Source: an uncultured virus (IMG/VR IMGVR_UViG_3300018417_002450)
Lineage: Duplodnaviria; Heunggongvirae; Uroviricota; Caudoviricetes
DNA: 20,000 bases
IMG/VR virus record: IMGVR_UViG_3300018417_002450
Reading direction: 5' to 3' (one strand)
Below are positions 524-18,476 of the stretch, piece after piece (positions within the stretch are counted from its first letter, which is position 1; every line of letters begins with the position of its first letter). The notes under the pieces are model-generated. The model searched no databases, had not been told where the DNA came from, and worked only from the letters and a program-made list of their open reading frames with translations. The translations under genes were made by a program, and so were the position numbers.

Positions 524-946
524 TTAGTTTTCAAACACGTCGGTATCCTCACTAGACTCATTCAAACGACGAAGTTGCTCTAATTCTTGTTGTAATTTCA
601 AGACTTCGAGACGCTTCTTTCTCAATTCTAATTCATACAAATCGTTGCAATTAATTCTTTCTTTTGGCCCGTCAAGCGGAATAATAATTCTAGCATAAAC
701 ACCGACATCCCTACTGCTATCAATATCGCTTCCGCCATTAAAAGGACTATTATAATTATCAATAATACCGGTAACACCAAATTCTAAATTTGTAGAGCCA
801 CCGATTGAGTTTTTACAATCAATGTCACCTGAGCGAATACTATCTTGTCCATAGGACTGACCCATATTGGGTAATTGCAATCCAATATTGTCTGCCCACG
901 CTGCTGGACTAAATAGTACCACCGCTAATAATATATATCTTTTCAT
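524..946 (-). CDS. Exported protein: signal peptide, Cys-bracketed amphipathic beta-hairpin, C-terminal coiled coil
   Basis: MKRYILLAVVLFSPAAWA signal peptide. DC...NLEFGVTG...VGVYARIIIPL...NC, then LELRKKRLEVLKLQQELEQLRRL. Start overlaps the upstream stop by 1 nt. Confidence 0.8.
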   Translation of the reverse strand: MKRYILLAVVLFSPAAWADNIGLQLPNMGQSYGQDSIRSGDIDCKNSIGGSTNLEFGVTGIIDNYNSPFNGGSDIDSSRDVGVYARIIIPLDGPKERINCNDLYELELRKKRLEVLKLQQELEQLRRLNESSEDTDVFEN

Positions 947-4086: not shown

Positions 4087-4506
4087 ATGAATATGGTAGA
4101 AGTCAAAGGTGGTCCTGCTAAAGAACGGGAAATCGTTGAGCAAACCGTGTACTGGTGTATTAAGAAATTAATGCCAAGAGTTCGCACTTTAGATATTGAA
4201 GTCAAATTGACAAAGTGTGACGCATATGGCTATTGCTTAATGACTGACAATCATAAAACATTTGAGTTAGAAATTCGTAAAGGAATGAACTTATACGATT
4301 TAATTAGTACTGTTTGCCACGAAATGGTTCATGTTAAGCAATACTATCGTAAAGAAATGGATGATGATAGCAATCGTTGGAAGTCTAAGCAATTAGGTGA
4401 TATGAATTATGTGGATCGTCCTTGGGAAAAAGAAGCATTTCGTATGGAAGAAAAATTGGCTGTTGAATGCTTCAAAAATATTGCAATAAATTTTGCAAAA
4501 AAGTGA
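4087..4506 (+). CDS. Zincin-like metallopeptidase domain protein (HExxH)
   Basis: TVCHEMVHVKQY and downstream PWEKEA motif. GGAG RBS at 4075-78. Confidence 0.8.
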   Translation: MNMVEVKGGPAKEREIVEQTVYWCIKKLMPRVRTLDIEVKLTKCDAYGYCLMTDNHKTFELEIRKGMNLYDLISTVCHEMVHVKQYYRKEMDDDSNRWKSKQLGDMNYVDRPWEKEAFRMEEKLAVECFKNIAINFAKK

Positions 4507-4526
4507 AAAAAAGTGAAAAAAAGGGT
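4497..4526 (+). repeat. 10-bp-phased A-tract repeat (UP-element-like)
   Basis: AAAAAAGTGA AAAAAAGTGA AAAAAAGGGT directly abutting the -35 box. Confidence 0.7.
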
Positions 4527-4553
4527 TGACATTTCGTAGAAAAGGTATATATT
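4526..4553 (+). promoter_or_regulatory. sigma70-type promoter driving the structured RNA
   Basis: TTGACA (4526-31), 16 nt spacer, TATATT (4548-53). Shares GTTGACATTTC with the 4029 promoter. No protein start follows. Confidence 0.7.
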
Positions 4554-4561
4554 AATAATAT

Positions 4562-4910
4562 AAGGAATGAGGGAATAGGCCACGACGCTATCACCTTCGG
4601 GTAAAAAAGCATGACGGTAACGAATCTTATTCCTTTTATCTGGTGAATATACCGCCCGTGAAATACCGGTGACGTGAAACCCAGATAGTCTGTAGCCTGG
4701 CGCAGACGTTAAACTTCGCCCAGGTAGCAATTCAAAGTTTTCACTCGACGGAGTGAGATTGTGGTGACTGAATAATCCCTTACAAACGGGGATAAGGTAA
4801 TATCGAAGGATCTTAGCGGATCGCCTTAGCGGGTGCAGGTAGGTACGGGCCGAGTCGGACAGGTAGTTTGTCAGTGGCGCTGTTGAAGGAAAACCTAATC
4901 CTTCCCACAC
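4562..4910 (+). ncRNA. Large structured non-coding RNA A (~350 nt), family unassigned
   Basis: GC-richer, no + strand ORF, own promoter. More than 10 helices found by eye, e.g. 4562-71/4626-35, 4637-43/4681-87, 4688-93/4702-07, 4711-16/4735-40, 4741-46/4751-56, 4760-64/4905-09, 4885-90/4899-4904. Two loop pairings and a cUUCGg loop. Confidence 0.7.
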
Positions 4911-4916
4911 ATTTAT

Positions 4917-4924
4917 TATAAATA
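4917..4924 (+). promoter_or_regulatory. T4-type late promoter (TATAAATA)
   Basis: Exact box 27 nt upstream of ATG 4952 (GAGG RBS). Confidence 0.75.
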
Positions 4925-4951
4925 GTGGTATGAACACTAAAGAGGAATAAA

Positions 4952-5221
4952 ATGCCAGTTACAGCAAATACAGATCTAACCGCGTTAACCGTTGCTCAAA
5001 TTAATGAATTACTAGACGACGCAGGATCTGAAATTATAGTTGATGGTGCTACCTATATTGGTAGAAATGCTTCTGATGAATATCAGTGGGAAGTAACTTA
5101 TGACTCTCCACAAGCAAATGCATATGTCACGAATCATGCTTTTGTTGATGTTCATTTAGATGGCGAACCATTTATAGCATTAAATGATTTGGTAGAAGAA
5201 GACGATATTTTTGCTGAATAA
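4952..5221 (+). CDS. Small, extremely acidic hypothetical protein (89 aa)
   Basis: AGAGGA RBS and late promoter. 19 Asp/Glu, 1 Arg, 0 Lys. Confidence 0.8.
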   Translation: MPVTANTDLTALTVAQINELLDDAGSEIIVDGATYIGRNASDEYQWEVTYDSPQANAYVTNHAFVDVHLDGEPFIALNDLVEEDDIFAE

Positions 5222-5226
5222 GAATT

Positions 5227-5492
5227 CTCTGAGGCAGCGGCGACAATTATAAGAGCGCCAGTCTAAAACTCAGAGCAGACGATGTGACTTAGGTCGTTAT
5301 ATCATTTGTCTGATACGCGGTAACGACCTATGCCTGAATTGCCCGTCGGTTCAGGAAGAAATCTAAATACGTGCTCATTGCACACGAGACGTATAGGGCG
5401 GGCCATATTTGAGATAGGCAAATCCCAAGGCAACCACGCCGCCTATCAATCGGCAGAGTAAGACTCGGATTAACAATGGGTGTCACTCAGAC
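5227..5492 (+). ncRNA. Multi-pseudoknot non-coding RNA B (~265 nt), family unassigned
   Basis: Helices 5227-33/5269-75, 5276-82/5306-12, 5333-38/5350-55, 5367-72/5389-94, 5413-19/5441-47. Loop pairings 5290-99/5321-30 (10 bp perfect), 5341-47/5397-5403, 5421-25/5467-71. Ends at a terminator. Confidence 0.7.
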
Positions 5493-5495
5493 GAG

Positions 5496-5524
5496 AAAGG
5501 GAGAGCTTCGGCTCTCCCTTTTTT
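5496..5524 (+). terminator. Rho-independent terminator, possibly bidirectional
   Basis: AAAGGGAGAGC-TTCG-GCTCTCCCTTT then T-tract, between convergent transcripts. Confidence 0.92.
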
Positions 5525-5526
5525 AT

Positions 5527-5838
5527 TTACTTACGAATAGCGTCAGCACCAAAGAAGGCTGCAACTAAAGCTGAAATAGCAACAAAATATGTTGGAGCAA
5601 TATCACCAACAATAGCTGCTGCAGTATCTAAACCAAAATATGATGTTAAGACAATTGCAAATGGATAGAGTAGCATGCCAAATAAAGCAAACCATGTCAT
5701 TCCACGCATCGCATCCCGCTGTGCGTCTTTATCTTCTAATTCTTTTCTTTTAAATTCAAGATACATTTCGCGCTCAACGTCGTCTACAACGCCATCGCCA
5801 TTTGTATCTGCTGGATGATAACTTTTATCTTCAGCCAT
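5527..5838 (-). CDS. Small two-TM membrane protein with N-terminal EF-hand-like loop (holin-like size and topology)
   Basis: DTNGDGVVDDVE loop. Hydrophobic segments WFALFGMLLYPFAIVL and YFVAISALVAAFFG. AGGAG RBS. Confidence 0.75.
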   Translation of the reverse strand: MAEDKSYHPADTNGDGVVDDVEREMYLEFKRKELEDKDAQRDAMRGMTWFALFGMLLYPFAIVLTSYFGLDTAAAIVGDIAPTYFVAISALVAAFFGADAIRK

Positions 5839-5904: not shown

Positions 5905-6120
5905 ATGTATATAACACCATGCATAGGCGTTTGCATAGCAGATCCAGAGACTCGGCTATGTCGAGGCTGCAAAAGAACTGTATGGGAAATACGAAATTGG
6001 AATAATTATACAGATGAAGAGCGCATGAAAGTAATGCGTAGACTTGGCTATGGAAAACGAAAAAAACGTATAAATAATAAAAACGCTAATAGTCATATAG
6101 GAGACGAAGATGGCACTTAA
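5905..6120 (+). CDS. DUF1289-family small Cys-rich (metal-binding) protein
   Basis: TPCIGVC...LCRGCKRTVWEIRNW...ER pattern characteristic of DUF1289. Confidence 0.8.
   Translation: MYITPCIGVCIADPETRLCRGCKRTVWEIRNWNNYTDEERMKVMRRLGYGKRKKRINNKNANSHIGDEDGT
6069..6076 (+). promoter_or_regulatory. T4-type late promoter (TATAAATA) for structural/enzyme operon
   Basis: Exact box 33 nt upstream of ATG 6110 (AGGAG RBS). Confidence 0.75.
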
Positions 6121-8724: not shown

Positions 8725-9426
8725 ATGCCTTATATAGATAATGAGCTGACAGCGATGGTTGACCTTTCAACGTATTGCAACGCATCTTGTCCCCAATGTC
8801 ATAGAACAGACCAAGAAGATATTTCTAAAAAAAACTATTGGCTTCCTTTAGTTCAATGGTCGTTTGAGACTTTTAAAAAAAGATTTCCAGTACAATCTCT
8901 TTATAGATACAAGCAAATAATTTTTTGCGGCACTTGGGGTGACCCAATGATGAATAAAGACATTATGGAAATCATAAGATATGTTTTATCAAGTAATAAC
9001 AAAACTATTGTCATTGTTAACACAAACGCAAGCCTAAGAGATGAAACTTGGTGGTGGGAACTTGGCATGTTAAGTTACAAATATCATCACAGGCTTGAGG
9101 TCATATTTGATGTTGATGGCATTACACAAGAGCAGCATGCTAGATATAGGGTAGGAACGGAGCTTGATAAAGTTTTAACTCATATGCGTGCTTATACAGA
9201 GTCTGGATCAATTGCTAAATGCTTCACTATCGTATTTGAACACAATCAAGACGACGTTGAAAAAATAGGTGAATTAGCTAAAGCAAATGGTGCAATAAGT
9301 ATGTACATCCAACCGTCAAATAGATTTGATAAAAATCCAGAGCAGTTTAGATATATACAAGAAGGAAAAATACGACACTTAAAACCACCTACAAAATATA
9401 CTGAATTTAAGGTAATAGGACTATGA
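8725..9426 (+). CDS. Radical SAM protein (core domain only)
   Basis: CNASCPQC (CxxxCxxC), FCGTWGDPMM, VNTNAS, FDVDG. Confidence 0.9.
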   Translation: MPYIDNELTAMVDLSTYCNASCPQCHRTDQEDISKKNYWLPLVQWSFETFKKRFPVQSLYRYKQIIFCGTWGDPMMNKDIMEIIRYVLSSNNKTIVIVNTNASLRDETWWWELGMLSYKYHHRLEVIFDVDGITQEQHARYRVGTELDKVLTHMRAYTESGSIAKCFTIVFEHNQDDVEKIGELAKANGAISMYIQPSNRFDKNPEQFRYIQEGKIRHLKPPTKYTEFKVIGL

Positions 9427-9809
9427 AAAAAATACGATGTTCTTTCTTTGAAAAAAATGAATTAAATATAAATCCAGATGGTCAGGTGTATCCATGCTGC
9501 TTTTTTGCTAATACTCTTTTTCTAGCAAAACAATTTGGATATCCTAAAAGGGGTGATATAGATCTTAGAGAAATAGATAGTAATCATATTCAAAACGGAT
9601 TGCAAAACTCTGAAGCTATAGCCGTAGGAGTCATAGATAATAATCCAATATATAAAGAGTACGTTGAAAATGAAGCTGATTATAATTTAGATAATAAAAG
9701 TATTACTGAAATCGTAAACTCTGAGTGGTATACTAAACTTGAAGAGTCTCGTAAAACTTGGGATACTGCCCCTCAAGTATGTAAAAATTGGTGCACTATT
9801 AGTGACTAA
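9423..9809 (+). CDS. Stand-alone SPASM/twitch-like Fe-S domain protein
   Basis: RC...INPDGQVYPCC...NLDNKSITEIVNSEWY...VCKNWC. ATGA overlap with upstream stop. Confidence 0.8.
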   Translation: MKKIRCSFFEKNELNINPDGQVYPCCFFANTLFLAKQFGYPKRGDIDLREIDSNHIQNGLQNSEAIAVGVIDNNPIYKEYVENEADYNLDNKSITEIVNSEWYTKLEESRKTWDTAPQVCKNWCTISD

Positions 9810-10494
9810 ACTTATTAATTTCTATAATCGTTCATATGGCAAAGCTGAGCATTTAAGAAAGCCTGGTACTAGAAATATTAATATGGACATAACTAATAGA
9901 TGTACTCTAGCATGCCTAACATGTGAAAGACAATGGCGTATTCAATTAAAGGGAAAAGTTGCGGGCGAAGTTTTATCAGTGTCTGATTTTGAAAAATACA
10001 TACCGTGGTTTGACCATTTTGATTTTTGTGGACAAGTTTCAGATCCTAGCATGCATCCTGAGTTTGATAAAATTTTAGAACTTGTAGCAAAAAATGATAA
10101 GAGTGCTGATATTCATAACACTGCTTCTCAAAGACCAGAGAAATGGTATAGAAGAATGTTTGATATATCAGCAGGTACTAGAATAGCCTGGCGTTTTGGA
10201 ATAGATGGATTACCAAAAGATTCGCATAAATACAGGACAAGGCAAGACGGACAAAAGTTATTTGAAATGATGTCTATTGCTGCAAAATACAATCCTAAAA
10301 TTACAATTTATTGGAAATACATTATTTTTAATTATAATCAAAATGATATAGAAGTGTGTAAACAAACGGCCAAGGACTTAGGAGTAATATTTAATACCGT
10401 CAACTCAAGAAGACATCCGCCAGGTTTAAGGCCAGACGAGGCATTGACTTCAAAACTTGCTATGGACAATTCGTATTTTTATCCAGATGACTGA
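9802..10494 (+). CDS. Radical SAM protein (core domain only)
   Basis: CTLACLTC, FCGQVSDPSMHP, HNTAS, FGIDG. GTG 9802 overlapping the upstream gene end is a more likely start than the track's 9739. Confidence 0.88.
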   Translation: MTKLINFYNRSYGKAEHLRKPGTRNINMDITNRCTLACLTCERQWRIQLKGKVAGEVLSVSDFEKYIPWFDHFDFCGQVSDPSMHPEFDKILELVAKNDKSADIHNTASQRPEKWYRRMFDISAGTRIAWRFGIDGLPKDSHKYRTRQDGQKLFEMMSIAAKYNPKITIYWKYIIFNYNQNDIEVCKQTAKDLGVIFNTVNSRRHPPGLRPDEALTSKLAMDNSYFYPDD

Positions 10495-10828
10495 AAAATT
10501 TAAACCAATATGTATGACCAACACAGAAGGCATGGCTCACACTTGCTCAGGTCATTTAATTCCGTGCTGTCACCTTGATTATGTTGCTAATTGCGATCCT
10601 GCGTATAGAGAATTACTTAAAGACGAATTAAAACTATCAAACAACGATAGTGTAGAAGACATATTAACTTCTGATGAATGGCTAAATTTTGGGCGAGCTG
10701 TTTTTAAAGGATTAAACGAAGGAATAGAATATGCTCCTACGTCTTGTCAAAGAAAATGCGGTCCAAAAGATGGTTGGGATCCAAAACAGACTTTTAAACT
10801 AAACGAGTATCCCAAAGGTTGGAAATGA
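10487..10828 (+). CDS. Stand-alone SPASM/twitch-like Fe-S domain protein
   Basis: PIC...GHLIPCC...SVEDILTSDEW...SCQRKC. ATG 10487 chosen as start. Confidence 0.78.
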   Translation: MTEKFKPICMTNTEGMAHTCSGHLIPCCHLDYVANCDPAYRELLKDELKLSNNDSVEDILTSDEWLNFGRAVFKGLNEGIEYAPTSCQRKCGPKDGWDPKQTFKLNEYPKGWK

Positions 10829-11925
10829 AACATTATTGTGCAGCTCCTTTTACACATATATCTATTGACCCACGAGGCGTGCTGCTTCCATGTTGTAGAT
10901 ATAAAAAACCTTTATCAAACTTAGATGAAGAGAGAATAGACGAAGGTTGGAATAATCAAAACTTTCAGGATTTAAGAAATCAATTTTTAAATGGTGAAAA
11001 GCCCGAGGCTTGTTCTGATTGTTGGCACGCTGAAGAGTCAGGTAACCAAAGTTTAAGAAGTGTTATTAATGGTTGGGCTCGTAATAAAAAGTTTGACTCA
11101 GCAATAGTAACAGACGGACCTGTTTATTATGAATTTAAAACAACTAATGTATGTAATCTTAAATGTCGCATGTGCGGTTCTTTTAATTCAAGTCAAATTG
11201 CAAAAGAAACAGAATTAATAGCAACACGTAAGCATTATTTAAAACATAAATTGATAGGTACACATCATGAGCCTATCGTATATGAATGGCTTAAGAAAGC
11301 AGATTATATTCTCTTTGCTGGCGGCGAGCCATTTGTTAATGAAGAAATCAAAGAGATCATGTCTTATATCGATGATCAAGATTTAAATCATATTAGAACT
11401 TTAATAGTAACAAATGGAACTCATTGGAATGATAAGTTTGTAAAGCAATTAAAAACGTTGTGGGATTTAGATATAAGGATTAGCTTAGATGATATATATG
11501 AAAGAAACGATTACCAAAGGGAAGGTTCTGATTTTAATATAATTGAACAAAACTTTATTAAGTTTTCAAAAAACTTTTATGGAAAGGTGACGTTTAATTG
11601 CACTTTAAATTGGTATAATATATATCATATAGATGAATTTTTAGAATATGCTGACGACTTTAATACGCCCGTGTCAATACAATACGTGGAAAATCCGTCA
11701 TATTTAAATATTAGCAATTTACCGATAGCTATAAAAGAAATTGTTTGTAATAAATTTAAAGATACGAAAGACGAAAGAATTAAAAAAATTATAAGACGAA
11801 TGATGATTGATGGCGAAGATCAATCTGATAAATTTTGGAAACATATAAATTATTATGATAAGCTGAGAGGCAACGATTTTAGAGTTGCTTTCCCAGAGTG
11901 GAGTAAGATTCTTGAGAGCGTGTAA
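10825..11925 (+). CDS. Radical SAM protein with N-terminal SPASM/twitch domain
   Basis: YCAAPF...LPCC...CSDC, then CNLKCRMC, AGGEPF, VTNGT, ISLD. ATGA coupling at 10825. Confidence 0.9.
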   Translation: MKHYCAAPFTHISIDPRGVLLPCCRYKKPLSNLDEERIDEGWNNQNFQDLRNQFLNGEKPEACSDCWHAEESGNQSLRSVINGWARNKKFDSAIVTDGPVYYEFKTTNVCNLKCRMCGSFNSSQIAKETELIATRKHYLKHKLIGTHHEPIVYEWLKKADYILFAGGEPFVNEEIKEIMSYIDDQDLNHIRTLIVTNGTHWNDKFVKQLKTLWDLDIRISLDDIYERNDYQREGSDFNIIEQNFIKFSKNFYGKVTFNCTLNWYNIYHIDEFLEYADDFNTPVSIQYVENPSYLNISNLPIAIKEIVCNKFKDTKDERIKKIIRRMMIDGEDQSDKFWKHINYYDKLRGNDFRVAFPEWSKILESV

Positions 11926-12961
11926 CGCACCCTTCAACAACATGTATATTACACTTCAAGGCAGGGTTTCCCCTTGCTGGAAACTGCCTGGGTTTTGCGA
12001 GACTTGGAGTAAAGATAAATCTTTAATGGATATATGGCAAGGTGAAACGTTTCAAAAATACAGAGATGCTTTAAGTCAAAATGTATTTTTAGATCGGTGT
12101 ATGGAATGCAAAAAAGATATTGATAATAATATCTGGCCATTGGCGAAAGCATACGAAAAGTTTCCAGTAAATACTATGCCATCTCTTATGGAAATTGAAT
12201 TAAGCAATCAATGTAATCTTGAATGCATTATGTGTAATGGTAATTTAAGTTCCGGCATTAGAAAAAACAGAGATAAGCTTCCTCCTTTACCTCAAATATT
12301 TGATAATTCGTTTTTAGAACAAATGCGAGAGTTTATTCCACACCTTACTGAATTAAGAGTAAATGGTGGTGAGCCTTTTGCTCAAAAAATATTATTAGAT
12401 TTACTTGATGTTGTAGCTGAAATTAAACCGGAGCTTAAAGTTAATATCGCGACTAATGGTACTGTTTATAACAAAAGAGTTCAAGGAATACTTGATAAAT
12501 GTAATATCCATTTAAATATTAGTATTGATAGTTTAATTCCAGAACGATATGAAGAAATACGAGTAAATGGTAACTTTGTTACGCTTATGAAATACTTTGA
12601 TATATTTAAAAATTATTGTCATACAAATAACCGAAGTTTATCCATTATGGTTAACCCTATGAATATGAATTGGGATGAGATGATAGAGTTTGTAAGGTTT
12701 ACTGATAAACACAAATGCAATCTTTGGTATAATACTATTTTATATCCAACACATGTTACGCTTAAACATTTACCCGGCACAAAGCTTGCTGCGATTATTG
12801 ATGATATGAAAAAAGAACTAAATACAATTATAGGTTTTAGAAACTATGACAAAGCAGAACATCTAATAAGCCAATTAGAAAACTGGTGCTTAGATTCTTT
12901 AGATGGAACTCGAATTGATTTATATACTGATGGAGGGAGTTTGATTAATGCAACCCGATAA
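11912..12961 (+). CDS. Radical SAM protein with N-terminal SPASM/twitch domain
   Basis: CNAPF...SPCW...CMEC, then CNLECIMC, NGGEPF, ATNGT, ISIDS. TTG 11912 has GGAG 8 nt upstream (track start 11885). Confidence 0.9.
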   Translation: MRACNAPFNNMYITLQGRVSPCWKLPGFCETWSKDKSLMDIWQGETFQKYRDALSQNVFLDRCMECKKDIDNNIWPLAKAYEKFPVNTMPSLMEIELSNQCNLECIMCNGNLSSGIRKNRDKLPPLPQIFDNSFLEQMREFIPHLTELRVNGGEPFAQKILLDLLDVVAEIKPELKVNIATNGTVYNKRVQGILDKCNIHLNISIDSLIPERYEEIRVNGNFVTLMKYFDIFKNYCHTNNRSLSIMVNPMNMNWDEMIEFVRFTDKHKCNLWYNTILYPTHVTLKHLPGTKLAAIIDDMKKELNTIIGFRNYDKAEHLISQLENWCLDSLDGTRIDLYTDGGSLINATR

Positions 12962-13556
12962 TATTATATTTGTAAAACATGGTACTAAATATAATGCTGA
13001 GCATGTAAACAGATTACGTGACCAACTTATGGAATATTATAAGTGTGCTTATATGTGTTATACCGATGATCCGATTGGTGTTGAAATTGAAACAATACCA
13101 TGTTTTAAAAAACCAACTTTAAAATATTGGTGGAACAAGTTGGCCATGTTTAGTAAAGATTTTCCAGCACGAGGTAAATGTTTATTCTTTGATTTAGATA
13201 TGGATATAAAACGCGATCCATCAGAATATCTGAAGTGGAATGGCTTAACAATAATAAAAGACTATTGGAAAGATGATTTGTATATGGCCCCGCATGCTTA
13301 TGACGTGCACATAAATAGTTCTGTAATTACGTGGACCGCAGGTGAACAAAATCATATATGGGAACACTTCTTATCTAATAAAGATTATTTTATGAGAAAG
13401 TATGCAGGCATTGATAGATTTTTAGTTCACGAAGGTTTAAAATTTAACACGTTTGAGCACGGGCTGGTTAACAGCGTCGCTAATCCTTCTGAATGGAATG
13501 CGCCAATTGATATGTATAATGGATTAAAATATGATGTACAAAGAAGAAGTTTATAA
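12948..13556 (+). CDS. GT-A fold glycosyltransferase (GT8-like)
   Basis: VKHGTKY, CYTDD, WWNKLAMF, FFDLD (DxD), INSSV, GIDRFL. Confidence 0.8.
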   Translation: MQPDNIIFVKHGTKYNAEHVNRLRDQLMEYYKCAYMCYTDDPIGVEIETIPCFKKPTLKYWWNKLAMFSKDFPARGKCLFFDLDMDIKRDPSEYLKWNGLTIIKDYWKDDLYMAPHAYDVHINSSVITWTAGEQNHIWEHFLSNKDYFMRKYAGIDRFLVHEGLKFNTFEHGLVNSVANPSEWNAPIDMYNGLKYDVQRRSL

Positions 13557-14181
13557 AAATGCTTTAGAAATAATCCGGCAAATATATGAAGAGTCGAAGT
13601 ATAATCCAGATGTGGATTTATACAGAAGCTTAGATATTATTACTGCAACTAATGATGCCCAATTAACGAGCAAAGAATGGCTGGTTAATAATCTAATTCA
13701 ATACTTAGGCAAAAAGTATCTTGCGTTTCCATTGCGAGATGTTTTAATAATGGGCAGTTGGTATGGATTAACAAGCGCTATATTGCGTCAACATATTTCG
13801 GATAATGTTAAAATATGGAATATAGATTCTGATCCTTTATGCGCTGAATACGGATATAAACTAAACCATCACGAAAATACTATTCACGTATCAGACGACG
13901 CTATTGAATATTACTTTGATAGAGCAGATGCATTCCAATTAATTATTAATACAAGTTGTGAGCATATGGAGCAAGAGGATATTCGTATGATATTGAATTC
14001 AAAACCTATTGATACTATAGCTTGTTTTCAAAGCAATAACTATCATAACGAGGCAGAGCATATTAACACACATAATAGTTTGGATGAGTTTGTTGACTCG
14101 TTACAATTAGCTAGTGTTTATTATAAAGGTAAAATGAGCCCTTCTGAGGACTATACAAGGTATATGGTGATAGGAATATGA
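13531..14181 (+). CDS. Class I SAM-dependent methyltransferase
   Basis: VLIMGSWYG glycine loop, NIDSD, IINTSCEHM, FQSNNY. Confidence 0.8.
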   Translation: MMYKEEVYKNALEIIRQIYEESKYNPDVDLYRSLDIITATNDAQLTSKEWLVNNLIQYLGKKYLAFPLRDVLIMGSWYGLTSAILRQHISDNVKIWNIDSDPLCAEYGYKLNHHENTIHVSDDAIEYYFDRADAFQLIINTSCEHMEQEDIRMILNSKPIDTIACFQSNNYHNEAEHINTHNSLDEFVDSLQLASVYYKGKMSPSEDYTRYMVIGI

Positions 14182-15887
14182 GTAGAGTAGTCTTTACAAC
14201 GTATGATGATATTGATCACGTGGTCGATCGATGGGGCGGGAACGTACACCAAATAGATCAAATAAAAGAATACAAAGATCGTTTACTAGATAATAAAAAA
14301 ATGTACGCTGATAAAATTGGTGCTGACTTTAAGTTTTATGATAATACTATGAAAGACTTTGAGGTTGATGCTGGATTTGATTTTGCTAAGGTAAATTTAT
14401 ATAAACATTATTTAATGGCTCAATTAGCTGAAGAGTATGACGAAGTAATGTATGTTGATATGGATGTTTTATTTAATACTGAGCTTAATGTATTTGAAGA
14501 GCTTGACTTAGAAAAAGGCATTCATATTAAAGATCAAGACGATAAAATTGTTAATAAAAATATTAAAGAAATAATATTTCAATCAGTCGGTCAACGCAGT
14601 CCTACAATTAAATACCATATTACTAAAGACTTATTAGATGGACAAGATAACCATGTAATGAATACAGGTATTATGATTGGTAAATCCAAACATATAAAAC
14701 AAATTCATTATTACGATCGTATGATGGAAGCAATAACAAAAATAGAACAAATTAAATCGGATAACCTTGAAAGAGAAGATGGATCTTATTTAAGAGTTTA
14801 TTATTATCCAAATAACGAAAGCATATTTTCTTATATCATGGAAAAGTATAATGTGCCATATGTATTAATGGATAAAGAATGGCATTATATTATTAGTGAT
14901 CCAGAAAAAATTAACTTTGATGACATTAAAATAGCTCATTTTGTTAACAAAAAGTTTAATATGTATTTTAAAGATAAAACAAAACTTATCTATTCAATTT
15001 ATATTGAAATACCTGATGAACGATTAGATAATCCAAGAGGACACAGTGACGATCCTGTTAATAAAAGCTTGAGAACAAAACAGCGTTTAAGTAATTACAA
15101 AAAAGAACTAATTAAAAATCATATGGATTATGCTGCAAGTGTAGGTGCAGATTATATTAACTTTAGGCGAGACGACGAGTATGAAGAGTTTTTTAATAGG
15201 TTTCCAGATTTATCTGAATATGATATTATTAATTTATATAAAGTTCACCTTTTAGATAAGCTTACAAAAACCACGGATTTAGTTTTGTATATAGATTATG
15301 ATGTGGTATTTAACAAAGACATTGACGCGTTTAATTTCTTAAAGGCCGAATCGTGTCTTTGCTGTGATATATCGTCAGGCGAAGATGCTGGTGTTACCCC
15401 TAGCGTTCGTGGTTATTTTGAAAAATATGAAAAAGACTTTCGGAATCCTCAAGCTAAATATTGGAATTGCCATGCGCTGCTGCAAGAGGAAGACCTTGAT
15501 GGAGACAATAAAGTGTTTAACACCGGTATTATGATGGCAAGCAGAAAAGTAATGGATAGTTTAAATTATTTTGATGGTATAGATAACGTTCTTGAAACAA
15601 TGAAAGAGCTTAAAGAATTTTCAATGTATCCACCAGCTATACAAAAATCGTTTGGTTATGATAATGAAACTATTATGTCTTATAAAGTTCAGATGAATAA
15701 TGTACCAGTATATCCGTTATCCGAAACTTGGCATTATAAGCATGATACTCATAAAATTAAAACCTACGATATAAATACTATTGAGTTTCAACAAGAAAAA
15801 GCAAAATATAATAGTTCAGTAAAAGAACATAACGTAATTATGACACATTTTATCTCTAAGAATTTTGGATTAGTATTTGATGCATAA
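14178..15887 (+). CDS. Tandem two-domain GT-A glycosyltransferase (GT34/GT8-like)
   Basis: Duplicated motifs NLYK..YVDMD..NTGIM..NESIFSY..EWHY..HF and NLYK..YIDYD..NTGIM..NETIMSY..TWHY..HF. Confidence 0.8.
   Translation: MSRVVFTTYDDIDHVVDRWGGNVHQIDQIKEYKDRLLDNKKMYADKIGADFKFYDNTMKDFEVDAGFDFAKVNLYKHYLMAQLAEEYDEVMYVDMDVLFNTELNVFEELDLEKGIHIKDQDDKIVNKNIKEIIFQSVGQRSPTIKYHITKDLLDGQDNHVMNTGIMIGKSKHIKQIHYYDRMMEAITKIEQIKSDNLEREDGSYLRVYYYPNNESIFSYIMEKYNVPYVLMDKEWHYIISDPEKINFDDIKIAHFVNKKFNMYFKDKTKLIYSIYIEIPDERLDNPRGHSDDPVNKSLRTKQRLSNYKKELIKNHMDYAASVGADYINFRRDDEYEEFFNRFPDLSEYDIINLYKVHLLDKLTKTTDLVLYIDYDVVFNKDIDAFNFLKAESCLCCDISSGEDAGVTPSVRGYFEKYEKDFRNPQAKYWNCHALLQEEDLDGDNKVFNTGIMMASRKVMDSLNYFDGIDNVLETMKELKEFSMYPPAIQKSFGYDNETIMSYKVQMNNVPVYPLSETWHYKHDTHKIKTYDINTIEFQQEKAKYNSSVKEHNVIMTHFISKNFGLVFDA
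15770..15777 (+). promoter_or_regulatory. Possible internal late promoter upstream of the desaturase
   Basis: Exact TATAAATA about 100 nt before the desaturase start, inside a CDS. Could be chance in AT-rich DNA. Confidence 0.35.
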
Positions 15888-16599
15888 CACAACAAAACTT
15901 ATAATTAACCACGGTTTCAGCCATTTAATGCTAATACCAGCATTTATGTATGGCGAGCTGTGGATGTGGGCTTTTGCATTTCTATGGTGGTATGTGATTG
16001 CTATTGTGGCTATTAGTGGTGGCTATCATAGATATTATTCGCATAGAACATATACTTGCAGTAAGTGGTATCAAGTTTTAATTAATGTCCTTGGAATATT
16101 TTCAGGTGCTGGACCAGCGCTAACTTGGGCCGCTGTTCATAAACAGCATCACGCATATGCAGATAAAGAAGATGACCCACATTCTTATCACCACAAAGGA
16201 TGGTTTTCAGTTTATGTGAACACTTGGGGATACAACTCTAAAATTAAGCGTAGGTTCATTAAAACTCTATGGAGAGATCCAATTCTTAAATTTTTCCATA
16301 AGCAATATTTTACATTGAATTTGTTTATTATTATATTACTCTTTTTAATAGACCCAATGCTTATGGTATTTGGATATGCTATACCCGTAGTATTTGCATT
16401 TCATGGTTACGGTTTACTTAATATACTTGGCCACAAGGATGGGCCTACTAATACTTTCGTTGGAAATATTTTAACAGCTGGTGAAGGATGGCATGCCAAT
16501 CACCATAAGAAGCCTGGAAGTTATAAAATTGGAATGAAGTGGTGGCAGTTTGATCCCACCGCATATTATATCGCTCTCATGTTTAAGGAGAAAAAATGA
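15877..16599 (+). CDS. Membrane-bound fatty-acid desaturase, delta-9 (DesC/Ole1)-like
   Basis: Three His boxes HRYYSH, HKQHH (WAAVHKQHH...DDPHS) and GEGWHANHH. WWQFDPT motif and TM segments. Confidence 0.92.
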   Translation: MMHNTTKLIINHGFSHLMLIPAFMYGELWMWAFAFLWWYVIAIVAISGGYHRYYSHRTYTCSKWYQVLINVLGIFSGAGPALTWAAVHKQHHAYADKEDDPHSYHHKGWFSVYVNTWGYNSKIKRRFIKTLWRDPILKFFHKQYFTLNLFIIILLFLIDPMLMVFGYAIPVVFAFHGYGLLNILGHKDGPTNTFVGNILTAGEGWHANHHKKPGSYKIGMKWWQFDPTAYYIALMFKEKK

Positions 16600-16618
16600 T
16601 TTAAGGAGAAGAAATGAT
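16583..16618 (+). repeat. 18-nt tandem duplication of RBS+ATG
   Basis: TTAAGGAGAAAAAATGAT followed by TTAAGGAGAAGAAATGAT (17/18 identical). Confidence 0.8.
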
Positions 16619-17297
16619 GGGTGAATTGAGATATAAAAATGAAGATCGCTTTGCTGAAACTATGGGCTACGAAGGATTCGAAGCAGATAAAGAAGAACTA
16701 AAAGCAATCTATCAAAGAATTAAACCTACTTGGGAAAGTAACGATAAGATTGGTATGGATGACGATCAGATTATATATCATGTAAGCTATGACGATAATA
16801 TGGTTTTATGGGATGAGATTTTCCAAGTAGTAAAAAGAATTGGTGAGCGTTGCGGTGTTAAAATTGTTTGGGAAGAAGTTAAACACGTGATGAAATTTAC
16901 TTTTATGTGGACTAAACCGCATGGAGTTCTTCATCCGCATACTGCTCATAACCTAAGAGCTTTGTCTGCTTTTAATATTCCTTTGATTGGTAGAACTGAA
17001 ATTATTCTATATCATAGAAAAAAAGAAAAAAATCTAATGTTTCCTGGCAGCGATACTTACGAGTATGCAAGACATGAATACTTTAATCCTTGCTTTTTAA
17101 ATGTAAACAAATTGCACGGATTAGTTAATGACAGTGATGAAGAACGTGTAATTTTGAAATGCCATATGCTTATTACTCCAATTGAAACTATGATTGAAGC
17201 AGTAGAAGGCGACAAAGAAATTCGTCAATTACCATATGCTCCTTGGTTAGAATCTAAGTTTAAACAAAAATTATGGATAGGTAAAAGTTCTACATGA
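16614..17297 (+). CDS. Cupin/DSBH-fold Fe(II)/2OG oxygenase-like protein with HxA variant motif
   Basis: FTFMWTKPHGVLHPHTAH...AFNIPL...FLNVNKLHGLVN...ERVILK follows the DSBH layout. Ala sits where Asp is expected. Confidence 0.6.
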   Translation: MMGELRYKNEDRFAETMGYEGFEADKEELKAIYQRIKPTWESNDKIGMDDDQIIYHVSYDDNMVLWDEIFQVVKRIGERCGVKIVWEEVKHVMKFTFMWTKPHGVLHPHTAHNLRALSAFNIPLIGRTEIILYHRKKEKNLMFPGSDTYEYARHEYFNPCFLNVNKLHGLVNDSDEERVILKCHMLITPIETMIEAVEGDKEIRQLPYAPWLESKFKQKLWIGKSST

Positions 17298-17860
17298 CAT
17301 ATCCAACCAACCTCAAAGTATATAGGATGGATTTTACAAATGAATATATTTTTGTTGATAAACTAAAAGAGCTTAAACAAACTGATGCTAGTAAGAACAA
17401 AGATTGGTGGCCGAACTTAATTGAAAACTATAAAAGATACGATCAATGGTATTTAGTTTTTCATAAAGAAGAAATAATATCTTTTTCTTGTGTACAATTA
17501 TTTAGTAAAAGTACTGCCAGACTTGCAACTAGATTGTGGAATGGCGTTAAGAAAAAAGGATTAGAAAGGGGAGTTATTTTAGATGAAGTATCTCCTGCTA
17601 TGTTAATGATTAAAATGCAGTTAGAAGATTATAAAGATTATAATGTTTTCTTTTCGATGCAGCTATTAAATAGAAGAAAACACCTTGAGATGTTTGCTGA
17701 AAAGCTCAATATTAAATTAGGTAGATCTTTTAAATTGAATGATGGCATGTATCAAACATGTCCGTATGATAGTATTAATTGTTGGCAAAGTACAATATCT
17801 GAAAAAGAATTAAACTTGCCTGAAATGCCAATTGAAGAATGGAAAGAAAAGTATGTCTGA
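17294..17860 (+). CDS. Hypothetical protein, possibly GNAT/acyltransferase-like fold
   Basis: WYLVFHKEEIISFSCVQ...ARLATRLW strand pattern resembles GNAT beta2-beta4. Weak evidence. Confidence 0.45.
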   Translation: MTYPTNLKVYRMDFTNEYIFVDKLKELKQTDASKNKDWWPNLIENYKRYDQWYLVFHKEEIISFSCVQLFSKSTARLATRLWNGVKKKGLERGVILDEVSPAMLMIKMQLEDYKDYNVFFSMQLLNRRKHLEMFAEKLNIKLGRSFKLNDGMYQTCPYDSINCWQSTISEKELNLPEMPIEEWKEKYV

Positions 17861-18476
17861 ATGCTTAATTGAAAAAACCAAAAGAACAAGAGTAAAAGGT
17901 CCTGGTCCTCGTAGAACTGAGATGGTTACTTTTGCTAAGATCGGCGATGTTGATCCAGCTCTTTTAGATCAGCTTAGATTTATTTTATTAAGAAATCCTC
18001 AAAACGATCTTGGCGGAGACGGATACAATATTTCTCAGCAATGCGATCTTGAAGGAGTTTTTAATGCGGCTGGTAGTTATAGACAAGTGCTTATTCAAAA
18101 ATCTATTCATGACCATGCTACTGCTTCAGAATTTGATTACACTGAATACACTGAAGACGTGAATATTCCTTGGTTTGAAAAGATCTATAGATTAAGACTG
18201 TCACATATGGGACCACGTCATACTATTAGTTGGCATATTGATACTGACACGAGTGTAATGTGTCGTGCTCAAATTTGTCTAAATGAAAACGATTCAGTGT
18301 TTAAATTTAAAACAAAAAATGGAATAGAAGAGTTCACTATGAAGCCTGGCGAAATGTGGTTTATTAATACTGGTTGGCCGCATAGTGTTGAAGGCGGAAA
18401 AAAGCAAAGAGCAGTTGCGATATTTGGATTTGAATATAAGGATTACAATGGAGATACTCACTTATTGCGCTCATAA
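17853..18476 (+). CDS. Fe(II)/2OG oxygenase, aspartyl/asparaginyl beta-hydroxylase-like
   Basis: RLRLSHMGPRHTISWHID...GEMWFINTGWPHSV...R. ATG 17853 chosen as start. Confidence 0.8.
   Translation: MSECLIEKTKRTRVKGPGPRRTEMVTFAKIGDVDPALLDQLRFILLRNPQNDLGGDGYNISQQCDLEGVFNAAGSYRQVLIQKSIHDHATASEFDYTEYTEDVNIPWFEKIYRLRLSHMGPRHTISWHIDTDTSVMCRAQICLNENDSVFKFKTKNGIEEFTMKPGEMWFINTGWPHSVEGGKKQRAVAIFGFEYKDYNGDTHLLRS

What the first reader, a model, noticed from the sequence alone, without database searches (positions are those of the whole stretch)
5227..5492. Non-coding RNA B: a chain of up to three consecutive pseudoknots ending at a terminator
Seen: hairpin CUCUGAG/CUCAGAG comes first. The loop UAGGUCGUUA (5290-99) of hairpin CAGACGA/UUGUCUG is the perfect complement of UAACGACCUA (5321-30). 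The loop GCCCGUC of hairpin CCUGAA/UUCAGG pairs with GGCGGGC (5397-5403) across a nested AUACGU/ACGUAU hairpin. Hairpin GAUAGGC/GCCUAUC has internal AAUCC complementary to GGAUU (5467-71). There is no downstream gene to regulate, so it is not a standard riboswitch. Known: serial pseudoknots occur in tmRNA and in marine phage motifs such as manA and wcaG. Inference: a trans-acting or nuclease-resistant RNA, possibly a decoy or antitoxin mimic, since type III antitoxins are pseudoknots.
Basis: partly seen in the sequence, partly recalled or inferred. Interest (0 to 1): 0.75.

Follow-up and report, generated by a model that had tools for sequence, protein, structure and literature searches.

The report
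New double-pseudoknot RNA of marine phages
The flagged stretch holds a previously undescribed, strongly conserved small folded RNA of uncultured marine phages, followed by a second rarer RNA module and a terminator, and what either RNA does is still unknown.

Summary
Every quoted complementarity sits at its stated coordinates.

The region is two separate RNA modules plus a terminator.

**Module 1 (5226-5406)** belongs to an RNA family with no Rfam 15 match. I found 31 distinct sequences of it in phage-like contigs.
- 21 lie directly after a homologue of the small gene 4952-5221 ("ORF89").
- 10 lie inside tRNA arrays, one of them beside GOLLD and manA RNAs.
- Compensatory changes support hairpins P1 to P4 and the first pseudoknot, 5290-5299 with 5321-5330.
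- The second pseudoknot (5341-5347 with 5397-5403) never varies, so it is neither confirmed nor refuted.

**Module 2 (5413-5490)** occurs in only 6 loci, always just before a terminator. Its hairpin and AAUCC/GGAUU pairing have modest support.

**Most likely function (inferred).** Module 1 is a self-contained, trans-acting structured RNA. It is made from an early promoter-to-terminator unit (4526 to 5524) and has an invariant functional core.

**Rivals.** A cis-regulator of a GroES-like gene that follows it in 14 of 21 relatives, a 3' UTR element of ORF89, or a ribozyme. I found no support for an antitoxin mimic.

The parts
4526..4553 (+). Sigma-70-like promoter (TTGACA, 16 nt spacer, TATATT), the likely start of the transcription unit that holds the finding
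   Evidence: 11 of 12 consensus matches. The same AAAGTGAAAAAAAGGGTTGACA block recurs behind module 1 in L092-L095.
4741..4914 (+). manA RNA motif (RF01745), upstream of ORF89 in the same unit
   Evidence: cmscan 51.4 bits, E 2e-12, full model 1-192. This is just under the gathering score of 55.2.
4952..5221 (+). ORF89, a conserved small acidic protein of unknown function with an invariant NASDEYQ motif. Module 1 begins 4-15 nt behind its stop in this window and in the relatives whose downstream sequence printed.
   Evidence: 16 relatives at E <= 7e-7, aligned in A3. AlphaFold2 pLDDT 82.6, no PDB fold match at E <= 0.001. No Pfam or PHROG hit.
5227..5275 (+). P1 hairpin of module 1 (outer stem 5227-5233 with 5269-5275)
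   Evidence: 84.5% of cells paired, 5 of 7 pairs changed on both sides. tRNA-array copies carry a different small hairpin here.
5276..5312 (+). P2 hairpin (5276-5282 with 5306-5312). Its loop carries the 5' strand of pseudoknot PK1.
   Evidence: A hairpin enclosing the PK1 strand forms in all 30 sequences folded, with very different stem sequences. Mean z = -3.0 against flank shuffles, but about 0 in L118, L121 and L122, whose stems are 6 bp. MAFFT columns are poorly aligned here (53% paired).
5290..5330 (+). Pseudoknot PK1: 5290-5299 pairs with 5321-5330
   Evidence: 10 of 10 pairs in the window. Helix 93-94% paired over 30 sequences, and 6 of 7 variable pairs have compensatory changes (GC/AU/GU, CG/UA and others).
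5333..5355 (+). P3 hairpin (5333-5338 with 5350-5355) with the invariant loop UUGCCCGUCGG
   Evidence: 97.8% paired, 6 of 6 pairs compensatory. The loop is invariant in all 30 sequences.
5341..5403 (+). Pseudoknot PK2: 5341-5347 (GCCCGUC) pairs with 5397-5403 (GGCGGGC) across the A-rich joiner 5356-5366 and hairpin P4
   Evidence: 7 pairs, 100% paired and invariant in 30 of 30, including a U-G pair that would be A-C on the other strand. The 16 distinct sequences found through the protein, not through this pattern, are an unbiased subset.
5367..5394 (+). P4, a variable hairpin nested inside PK2
   Evidence: In 25 of 30 sequences a hairpin closes on or within 1 nt of the base before UAGGG (in 23 of them as a U-A pair). 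Pair positions 2-4 use 4-6 different pair types. Mean z = -1.5.
5413..5490 (+). Module 2: hairpin 5413-5418 with 5441-5446, inner 3-bp hairpin 5429-5431 with 5438-5440, probable pseudoknot 5421-5425 with 5467-5471, and a near-invariant stretch 5448-5486
   Evidence: 6 loci only (window, L115, L096, L081, L083, L084). 89-91% identical where the adjacent gene is about 75% identical. 91% paired, 4 pairs compensatory, 2-5 of 500 shuffles as high. A rival nested fold is weaker.
5493..5524 (+). Intrinsic terminator shared by the + unit and the converging gene
   Evidence: 14-bp stem, loop of 4, T run. The inverted repeat 5496-5506 with 5511-5521 is 100% complementary.
5527..5838 (-). Converging 103-aa gene, widely conserved in marine T4-like phages. 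It marks the fixed right-hand border of a variable RNA-gene slot.
   Evidence: 596 relatives in viral contigs. 0 of the 80 fetched loci carry module 1. L002 carries tRNAs, manA and a two-piece tmRNA at the syntenic place.

Best explanation
**What it is.** Window 5226-5406 is one copy of an undescribed family of phage small structured RNAs, about 185 nt long. Its parts are:
- hairpin P1;
- hairpin P2, whose loop forms a 10-bp pseudoknot (PK1) with a downstream strand;
- hairpin P3, whose invariant loop UUGCCCGUCGG pairs with an invariant GGCGGGC strand (PK2) across an A-rich joiner and a variable hairpin P4.

**How it is made.** It is read on the + strand as part of a roughly 960-nt early transcript. 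That transcript runs from the promoter at 4526-4553 to the terminator at 5493-5524. It also holds a manA RNA, the small gene ORF89 and a second RNA module.

**How it most likely works (inferred).** The RNA is a self-contained unit that acts in trans during infection.
- The variable helices are scaffolding.
- The invariant PK2 core with its A-rich joiner is the working surface for a host or phage partner (protein, RNA or small ligand).
- In phages where it lies between tRNA genes, the tRNA-processing nucleases would cut it free.
- In this window it stays on, or is trimmed from, the 3' part of the ORF89 transcript.

**Module 2.** 5413-5490 is a separate, rarer 75-nt module that always sits directly before a terminator. 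It is most likely a 3'-terminal small RNA or 3'-end element with a near-invariant 40-nt single-stranded stretch.
For: **Shown: distribution.**
- The family has 31 distinct sequences (30 in alignment A4 plus L136) from 42 records.
- 20 of 25 loci fetched through ORF89 homologues carry it. ORF89 itself diverges to about 37% identity while the two core strands stay identical.

**Shown: structure.**
- Whole structure: 82.8% of cells paired against 73.0% in shuffles and 38-43% in slid controls. Covariation score 0.324 against 0.166. 0 of 500 shuffles reach the observed value on any of the five measures.
- PK1 and P3 were also found independently by RNAalifold, with 12 of 17 pairs compensatory.
- P2 and P4 form in every sequence despite unrelated stem sequences.

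**Shown: strand.**
- G-U pairs, including the invariant U-G in PK2, fit only the + strand.
- The RNA is co-oriented with ORF89 and with the flanking tRNAs.

**Shown: autonomy.**
- 10 of 31 copies lie in tRNA arrays without ORF89. In 8 of these 10 a tRNA-Pro(UGG) lies upstream, and in 3 a tRNA starts about 7 nt behind the RNA.
- In L116 it lies in one array with the 3' part of GOLLD, manA and 6 tRNAs.
- 7 of 21 ORF89-linked copies, this window included, have no gene directly behind.

**Shown: not protein-coding.** The distance between the two core strands varies from 61 to 73 nt in steps that are not multiples of three.

**Shown: presence in RNA libraries.** Contigs assembled from RNA-seq libraries of three studies (X1, X6, X12) cover 5112-5508 with no differing letter. 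Contigs do not prove transcription.

**Inferred:** trans action, release by processing, and PK2 as the functional site.
Against: - There is no direct evidence for a discrete processed RNA, for stability or for any partner.
- PK2 has no covariation at all. The pairing is therefore only consistent with the data, and a 3-bp extension of P3 (U-G, U-G, G-C) competes with it.
- The invariance of the core in the 18 viral and 3 genome-collection loci is partly by construction, because they were found with a pattern that demands it. Only the 16 protein-anchored distinct sequences are unbiased.
- In 14 of 21 ORF89-linked copies a GroES-like gene starts 27-33 nt (once 200 nt) downstream. An invariant core of this kind is also typical of ligand-binding aptamers, so a cis role remains open.
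- A 10-bp second stem drawn from an 11-15-nt hairpin loop may be sterically strained (recalled pseudoknot geometry), so P2 and PK1 may not both be fully formed at once.
- The family was not found in any cultured phage, so no experiment exists.
- Module 2 rests on 6 sequences from 3 lineages, and an alternative nested fold pairs 93% of its cells.
Confidence: 0.5

Rival explanations
1. Module 1 is a cis-acting sensor (riboswitch or thermosensor) in the 5' untranslated region of the GroES-like co-chaperonin gene. This window and some relatives have lost or replaced the regulated gene.
For: - 14 of 21 ORF89-linked copies are followed by a GroES-like gene starting 27-33 nt (once 200 nt) behind the RNA.
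- The invariant pseudoknotted core flanked by freely varying helices looks like an aptamer.
- The neighbouring manA motif is itself classed as a probable cis-regulator, and is reported upstream of chaperone genes (passages of PMC2864571).
Against: - 10 of 31 copies lie between tRNA genes.
- 7 of 21 ORF89-linked copies have a promoter, other RNAs or a terminator behind them.
- No terminator or anti-Shine-Dalgarno element overlaps the conserved 3' strand in the sequences printed.
- 5 of 25 ORF89 loci have the GroES-like gene directly behind ORF89 with no RNA at all.
Confidence: 0.15
2. Module 1 is a 3' UTR element of the ORF89 mRNA. It would be a block to 3' exonucleases, a processing signal, or the binding site through which the ORF89 protein controls its own message.
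For: - The RNA begins 4-15 nt after the ORF89 stop codon in the sequences printed. An ORF89 homologue lies just upstream in 21 of 31 distinct copies.
- The long P1 version with conserved internal loops is seen only in ORF89-linked copies.
- 20 of 25 ORF89 loci carry the RNA.
Against: - The P2-P4 core occurs without ORF89 in 10 copies.
- An invariant 11-nt loop and 12-nt strand are more than a nuclease block needs (inference).
- The ORF89 model shows no known RNA-binding fold.
Confidence: 0.15
3. Module 1 is a new class of self-cleaving or processing ribozyme that cuts multi-gene RNA precursors in tRNA and ncRNA islands.
For: Invariant nucleotides are held in a double-pseudoknot fold, and the RNA sits in precursors that must be cut into several RNAs. 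This evidence is circumstantial only.
Against: - No match to any ribozyme family of Rfam 15, even at E <= 10.
- No mapped ends. The tRNA-processing enzymes already explain precursor cutting (established knowledge, recalled).
Confidence: 0.08
4. One reading: a decoy or mimic of a type III antitoxin RNA that neutralises a host toxin.
For: It is a pseudoknotted phage RNA. Abstracts listed describe ToxI as an antitoxic RNA pseudoknot.
Against: - No tandem repeat within 4524-5600. The only array found is a 10-nt unit at 4500-4523.
- No toxin-like family among the 30 window ORFs scanned.
- The family is about five times longer than the roughly 36-nt antitoxin units (recalled).
Confidence: 0.03
5. 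A chance accumulation of inverted repeats, or a DNA-level site such as a recombination or packaging site.
For: - Both strands fold about equally well by energy.
- The slot is a hotspot of gene replacement among relatives.
Against: - Covariation with G-U pairs fits one strand only.
- The fold is kept at 31 distinct sequences in two unrelated genomic contexts.
Confidence: 0.02

Closest known systems
GOLLD and ROOL RNAs (large phage and prophage ncRNAs)
   Same: They are structured phage RNAs of unknown function with several pseudoknots, 'often near tRNA islands' (passages of 10.1101/2024.12.08.627333). In L116 the new RNA lies in the same array as a GOLLD 3' part, manA and tRNAs.
   Different: - They are about 4-5 times larger.
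- No Rfam model of either matches the window.
- Their homo-oligomeric cages are shown by cryo-EM. For the new RNA, self-association is only hinted at by palindromic loop sequences in some lineages.
manA RNA motif (RF01745)
   Same: It is a marine phage RNA with pseudoknots and no known ligand. It is present 300 nt upstream in the same transcription unit and in the tRNA islands of L002 and L116.
   Different: - The manA model does not match 5227-5492 even at E <= 10.
- The conserved nucleotides and the helix order are different.
Phage T4 stable RNAs rnaC and rnaD (species 1 and 2 RNAs)
   Same: They are small stable RNAs of unknown function encoded beside the tRNA genes of a T4-type phage (GenBank annotation).
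   Different: - No shared sequence blocks on reading.
- The family model finds nothing in the T4 genome.
- rnaD ends in CACCA, and rnaC carries a T-arm-like GGTTCGAATCC element.
Pseudoknot string of tmRNA
   Same: It has serial H-type pseudoknots. Relatives of this phage carry a two-piece tmRNA at the syntenic place (L002; Melnitz group, passages of PMC9004378).
   Different: - No tRNA-like domain and no tag reading frame.
- ARAGORN finds nothing in the window.
- No tmRNA model matches.
Type III antitoxin RNAs (ToxI and relatives)
   Same: They are pseudoknotted RNAs active in phage-host conflict.
   Different: No tandem repeats, no adjacent toxin gene, and a much longer unit.

Membership tests
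Any Rfam 15 family | A covariance-model match at or near the family's gathering score | tested here: not met
   - 0 matches at gathering score in the window.
- At E <= 10 the only hits inside 5227-5492 are weak extensions of terminator-type matches: MicX at 20.2 bits against a gathering score of 75, and SorY at 18.9 against 111.
- No hit on the motif in 9 homologous loci at E <= 0.01.
manA RNA (RF01745) | A match to the manA covariance model | tested here: not met
   manA matches 4741-4914 (51.4 bits), not the finding.
tmRNA (one-piece or two-piece) | A tRNA-like domain, a tag reading frame, and detection by ARAGORN or Rfam | tested here: not met
   ARAGORN finds 0 genes in the window, and no tmRNA model matches. 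As a positive control, L002's two-piece tmRNA was found at 116-121 bits.
Type III antitoxin RNA | Tandem direct repeats of a short unit next to a toxin endoribonuclease gene | tested here: not met
   Tandem Repeats Finder at score >= 30 finds only a 10-nt unit at 4500-4523. No toxin family in the Pfam or PHROG scans of 30 ORFs.
H-type pseudoknot (structural class) | A hairpin loop pairs with a strand outside the hairpin, and both helices are supported | tested here: met
   For PK1, helix P2 forms in 30 of 30 sequences and the loop-to-downstream helix is 93-94% paired with 6 compensatory pairs.
H-type pseudoknot (structural class), second knot PK2 | Covariation in the loop-to-downstream helix | tested here: inconclusive
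   7 of 7 pairs never vary in 30 sequences. A scan anchored on PK1 instead of PK2 brought no new members.
Riboswitch or cis-regulatory leader | A constant position upstream of a regulated gene, with an expression platform | tested here: not met
   A gene follows in 14 of 31 distinct copies only. 10 copies lie in tRNA arrays. No terminator or Shine-Dalgarno-sequestering helix is seen at the 3' strand.
Phage tRNA-island ncRNAs (a kind, not a homologous family) | A structured RNA gene co-oriented with and adjacent to phage tRNA genes | tested here: met
   All 10 copies without ORF89 have a tRNA within about 400 nt. L097 and L113 have tRNAs in the ORF89-linked form. This window itself has no tRNA.
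Stable or processed small RNA | Discrete 5' and 3' ends, and accumulation in infected cells | not testable with these tools
   Only assembled contigs of RNA libraries were available, and these cannot show ends, strand or level.

The most novel reading that the evidence does not exclude
Module 1 is a new functional RNA class of phage tRNA and ncRNA islands. The coaxial stack of P3 and PK2 (about 13 bp, with a 3' tail emerging at its end) would mimic the acceptor arm of a tRNA, as pseudoknots do in plant-virus tRNA-like structures (recalled). The RNA would thereby capture or divert a host tRNA-handling enzyme or a tRNA-targeting defence nuclease. It might act as a self-associating particle: the loop between P2 and PK1 carries 6-8-nt palindromes of three different kinds (CCUAGG, ACCGGU, ACUAGU) in 9 of 19 distinct loop sequences. 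This recalls the kissing-loop assemblies of GOLLD and ROOL.
Probability: 0.15. Interest if true: 0.85.

Novelty: new variant of a known kind. Interest (0 to 1): 0.62.

Why it matters
Phage-encoded structured RNAs that sit among tRNA genes (GOLLD, ROOL, the T4 stable RNAs) are abundant, and their functions are unknown. This finding adds a compact, about 185-nt member of that kind.

It has features that make it a tractable model:
- a well-determined fold with two pseudoknots;
- an absolutely conserved core;
- two distinct genomic settings, behind a conserved small protein gene and inside tRNA arrays.

It is small enough for chemical probing, crystallography or cryo-EM, ligand screens and pull-downs. 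It occurs in a group of marine phages related to those of the very abundant SAR11 and OM43 bacteria.

It also shows that one promoter-to-terminator unit of this phage is a mosaic of at least four RNA modules that are exchanged between phages like cassettes.

Tried and rejected
- **Direct DNA searches of the finding.** These found nothing useful. blastn of 5200-5530 against 50,697 phage records hit only the 31-nt terminator in 3 E. coli phage records. blastn of a tRNA-array copy found no match. tblastn of ORF89 found no match.
- **Exact-word scans.** A 17-mer of module 2 gave 4 viral loci, of which L082 was chance. A 16-mer of PK1 gave 2 chance loci, L089 and L090, and the follow-up script stopped for want of any BLAST hit. 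A weak BLAST hit in L086 is a coding VLINNA motif.
- **Genome-collection scan.** 6 of 9 hits (L135, L137, L139, L140, L142, L143) are chance matches in GC-rich coding DNA. About 8 were expected by my own estimate.
- **Searches that brought no new members.** The search for related loci with ORF89 alone in viral contigs confirmed none. The scan anchored on PK1 gave only 3 known contigs. The relaxed module 2 scan also gave only 3 known contigs.
- **Family model R1.** It found no copy in 80 loci around the 103-aa gene, nor in the Melnitz, HTVC008M or T4 genomes, nor in two large viral contigs.
- **ORF89 function.** There were no leads from the PDB fold search or from the ESM Atlas, which returned only viral hypothetical clusters.
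- **RNA libraries.** In X1, X6 and X12 no contig covered 3900-4547 or 5844-6300, while 4548-5508 was covered. Contigs cannot show absence, so I do not use this as evidence of transcript borders. X7 holds a 2201-nt contig of a 95-99% variant that runs across the terminator. That contig may be DNA carry-over or read-through.
- **Base-pairing target for module 2.** None was found in the window for its conserved stretch. The host is unknown.
- **Whole genome and earlier notes.** No whole genome is held for the window. The scan's earlier notes held nothing.
- **Literature.** Four keyword searches turned up no description of this RNA. Keyword searches cannot find a motif by sequence, so prior publication is not excluded. 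Supplements were not read.
Full report
**Setting.** The window is a piece of an uncultured marine T4-like phage.
- It carries radical-SAM/SPASM, TauD, glycosyltransferase and baseplate-like genes.
- Its only DNA matches among 50,697 phage records are about 70% identical stretches in Methylophilales phage Melnitz and Pelagibacter phage HTVC008M, plus a short 78% match in Streptococcus phage PH15.
- The finding lies between a small + strand gene (ORF89, 4952-5221) and a strong terminator (5493-5524). Behind the terminator a 103-aa gene converges from the - strand.
- A near-consensus sigma-70-type promoter sits at 4526-4553. The unit from about 4560 to 5524 therefore holds, in order: a conserved hairpin RNA (4558-4639), a manA RNA (4741-4914, 51.4 bits), ORF89, the finding, and the terminator.

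**The observation.**
- The 10-nt perfect complement 5290-5299 with 5321-5330 is one of four such pairs in 20 kb.
- The region folds better than shuffles on both strands (z = -3.8 and -4.75).
- No Rfam family matches at gathering score. At E <= 10 only terminator-driven noise touches the region. ARAGORN finds no tRNA or tmRNA.

**Finding relatives.**
- Direct DNA searches failed.
- The 103-aa gene has 596 relatives in viral contigs. In the 80 loci fetched, the space beside it is filled with different things. L001 has an unrelated 220-nt structured stretch. L002 has a tRNA and a small ORF next to a manA RNA, with a two-piece tmRNA on the other side of the 103-aa gene. So this is a variable slot for RNA genes.
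- Only L068 shared anything, and only the last 75 nt.
- The break came from ORF89. It is a real protein family, with 16 relatives and an invariant NASDEYQ motif. Fetching DNA around its homologues in metagenome contigs gave 25 loci. In 20 of them (one, L091, is a 99.7% twin of the window) the gene is followed within 4-15 nt by a conserved RNA equal to window 5226-5406. In the other 5 it is followed directly by a GroES-like gene.
- Two absolutely conserved blocks then served as a search pattern. This brought 18 more loci from viral contigs, all of which show the other helices. It also brought 9 from the genome collection. Three of those are real and lie in metagenome-assembled bins. Six are chance hits in GC-rich coding DNA.
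- After removing duplicates there are 31 distinct sequences.

**Structure of module 1 (5226-5406).** On the 30-sequence MAFFT alignment A4, I counted the structure transferred from the window.
- 82.8% of cells are paired, against 73.0% in column shuffles and 38-43% when the partners are slid.
- The covariation score is 0.324 against 0.166.
- 0 of 500 shuffles reach the observed value on any of the five measures.

| Helix | Cells paired | Pairs changed on both sides |
|---|---|---|
| P1 outer stem | 84.5% | 5 of 7 |
| P3 | 97.8% | 6 of 6 |
| PK2 (GCCCGUC with GGCGGGC) | 100% | 0 of 7, never varies |

- RNAalifold found PK1 and P3 on its own.
- P2 and P4 vary in length and are badly aligned by MAFFT (53% and 58% paired), so I folded them sequence by sequence.
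- A hairpin enclosing the PK1 strand forms in 30 of 30. The mean z is -3.0 against shuffled flanks, but about 0 in three sequences whose stems are only 6 bp.
- A P4 hairpin closes on or within 1 nt of the base before UAGGG in 25 of 30, in 23 of them as a U-A pair. Four to six different pair types occur at pair positions 2-4.
- Because P2 and PK1 are both conserved and cross each other, the first pseudoknot is real.
- The second pseudoknot is consistent with the data but unproven. All 7 pairs are invariant, and a 3-bp extension of P3 competes with it.
- The invariance is not only an artefact of my pattern. The 16 distinct sequences found through the protein are identical in both blocks, while ORF89 falls to about 37% identity. 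A scan anchored on PK1 instead of PK2 brought no further members.
- G-U pairs, among them the invariant U-G in PK2, fix the RNA on the + strand.
- The distance between the core blocks varies from 61 to 73 nt in steps that are not multiples of three, which rules out a conserved reading frame.

**Context of module 1.**
- 21 of 31 distinct copies follow an ORF89 homologue. 14 of these are followed by a GroES-like gene, 13 at 27-33 nt and one behind an inserted tRNA.
- The other 7, including this window, are followed by a promoter and other RNAs, or by module 2 and a terminator.
- The remaining 10 copies have no ORF89 and lie in tRNA arrays, co-oriented with the tRNAs. In 8 of the 10 a tRNA-Pro(UGG) lies upstream. 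In L125, L129 and L136 the next tRNA starts about 7 nt behind the RNA.
- In L116 the order on one strand is: GOLLD 3' part, manA, tRNA-Met, this RNA, then five tRNAs.
- The 10 copies without ORF89 lack the long P1 that starts with CTCTG, and three of them carry a short hairpin in its place.
- A covariance model built from 29 sequences scores the window at 105 bits. It recognises two divergent copies left out of training (43 and 37 bits). It finds nothing in the 80 loci around the 103-aa gene, nor in the Melnitz, HTVC008M and T4 genomes.

**Module 2 (5413-5490).**
- It occurs without module 1 in three viral contigs, behind a different small ORF. It occurs with module 1 in L115 and, in a diverged form, in L096. 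A relaxed scan found no more.
- In all 6 loci it stands directly before the terminator region.
- It is 89-91% identical where the adjacent coding sequence is about 75% identical, which points to constraint on the nucleotide sequence.
- An alternative nested fold proposed by RNAalifold pairs 93% of its cells. Its only covariation lies in the inner hairpin that both folds share.
- With 6 sequences from 3 lineages this is modest support.

**Expression.**
- Logan contigs from RNA-seq libraries of three salt-marsh studies cover 5112-5508 with no differing letter.
- Contigs cannot show strand, ends or level, and DNA may be present in such libraries.

**What it is like.**
- *By position and kind*, it resembles the phage ncRNAs of tRNA islands. 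GOLLD and ROOL are 'often near tRNA islands', of unknown function, and form kissing-loop assemblies (passages of 10.1101/2024.12.08.627333). The T4 stable RNAs rnaC and rnaD are annotated beside the T4 tRNA genes. I saw no shared sequence with these on reading, and the model finds nothing in T4.
- *By neighbourhood*, it joins manA. Weinberg et al. found manA in marine metagenomes and cyanophages and classed it as a probable cis-regulator (passages of PMC2864571; also passages of PMC9964418).
- The Melnitz-like phages are known to carry a two-piece tmRNA and a glutamine riboswitch in one promoter-to-terminator unit (passages of PMC9004378). L002 shows such a tmRNA on the far side of the 103-aa gene, with tRNAs and a manA RNA in the slot itself.
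- It is not a member of any of these families (see the membership rows).
- The antitoxin idea fails on its defining features.

**Function.**
- *Shown:* a conserved, strand-specific, non-coding fold with an invariant core, occurring as a movable unit in two contexts.
- *Inferred:* it works as an RNA in its own right rather than as a switch for one gene. A third of the copies sit among tRNAs, where the tRNA-processing nucleases would release it, and a third of the ORF89-linked copies have no gene behind them.
- The invariant PK2 region with the A-rich joiner is the likely working surface. A-rich strands crossing a pseudoknot stem usually form minor-groove triples (recalled).
- I put about 0.5 on this reading. 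I put 0.15 each on a GroES-leader sensor and on an ORF89 3' UTR element, and less on a ribozyme.

**Open question: loop palindromes.** Palindromes of three different kinds occur in the loop between P2 and PK1, in 9 of 19 distinct loop sequences, against 2.7 expected from shuffles. Shared descent inflates this count. The window has only CGCG, and four lineages have none. This may hint at dimerisation or may mean nothing.

**Novelty.**
- No Rfam 15 family matches.
- There is no copy in 50,697 deposited phage genomes by BLAST.
- Four keyword literature searches gave no description, though such searches cannot find a motif by sequence.
- I rate it a new RNA class within a known kind: structured phage RNAs of tRNA and ncRNA islands with unknown function.

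Noticed in passing
window 4741-4914 (+): A manA RNA motif (RF01745) scores 51.4 bits, E 2e-12, just under the gathering score of 55.2. It lies directly upstream of ORF89. In L002 and L116 manA lies between tRNA genes rather than before a protein gene, which sits badly with a purely cis-regulatory role.
   Followed up: partly
window 4558-4639 (+): A conserved hairpin RNA lies right behind the promoter (stem 4558-4571 with 4626-4639). It is 98% identical over 58 nt in L096 and 82-86% in L093-L095. RNA-library contigs of high depth (38-92) cover just this part and then run on into unlike sequence of other phages.
   Followed up: partly
window 4624-4637 and 4940-4953: The 3' strand of that hairpin is also 86% complementary to the ribosome-binding site and start codon of ORF89 (AAGAGGAATAAAAT). 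This could be an alternative pairing that controls ORF89 translation across the manA RNA.
   Followed up: no
window 4639-4685; L001 3549-3595: A 47-nt element (CTGGTGAATATACCGCCCGTGAAATACCGG...) is 98% identical in L001, although the surrounding sequence is unrelated. It has a hairpin with a GCCCGU-containing loop reminiscent of P3 of the new RNA.
   Followed up: no
L001 3330-3550 (-); L093, L094 and L095 behind their second promoter; loose end of an RNA contig of X1 at window 4624: Another recurring structured sequence, with the consensus GGC..ACGG.GAAAGCCTG.CAATTACG..A..GTACCCA..AAATCC followed by a hairpin, fills the same slot in other phages. It has no Rfam match at E <= 0.001 in L001 or at E <= 0.01 in L093. 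It is probably a further undescribed RNA motif.
   Followed up: no
L002 2489-2911 (-), 3567-3975 (-): A close relative carries a two-piece (permuted, alpha-type) tmRNA at 116-121 bits, two tRNAs and a manA RNA around the same 103-aa gene. The slot is therefore a hotspot for RNA-gene cassettes.
   Followed up: partly
L116 693-1461 (-): One array holds a GOLLD RNA 3' part (65 bits, cut by the end of the locus), manA, tRNA-Met, the new RNA and five more tRNAs.
   Followed up: partly
L129 about 580-625 (+); L131 and L132 upstream of the RNA: Between tRNA-Pro and the new RNA lie further small conserved hairpins. One is GGTCCCCTATAAAATGGGGTC in L131 and L132. In L129 a minihelix with a T-arm-like GGTTCGAACCC ends in CCCA and looks like a truncated tRNA.
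   Followed up: no
window 8725-12961 (+): A run of five reading frames carries radical-SAM and SPASM domains. Several are split, or have SPASM ahead of the radical-SAM domain. Glycosyltransferase, fatty-acid desaturase-like, Asp/Asn hydroxylase-like and TauD-like genes follow (12948-19810). This is an unusually large modification or auxiliary-metabolism cluster for a phage.
   Followed up: no
window 5905-6120 (+): A 71-aa protein has a clear DUF1289 match (E 8.5e-18), directly beside the RNA slot.
   Followed up: no
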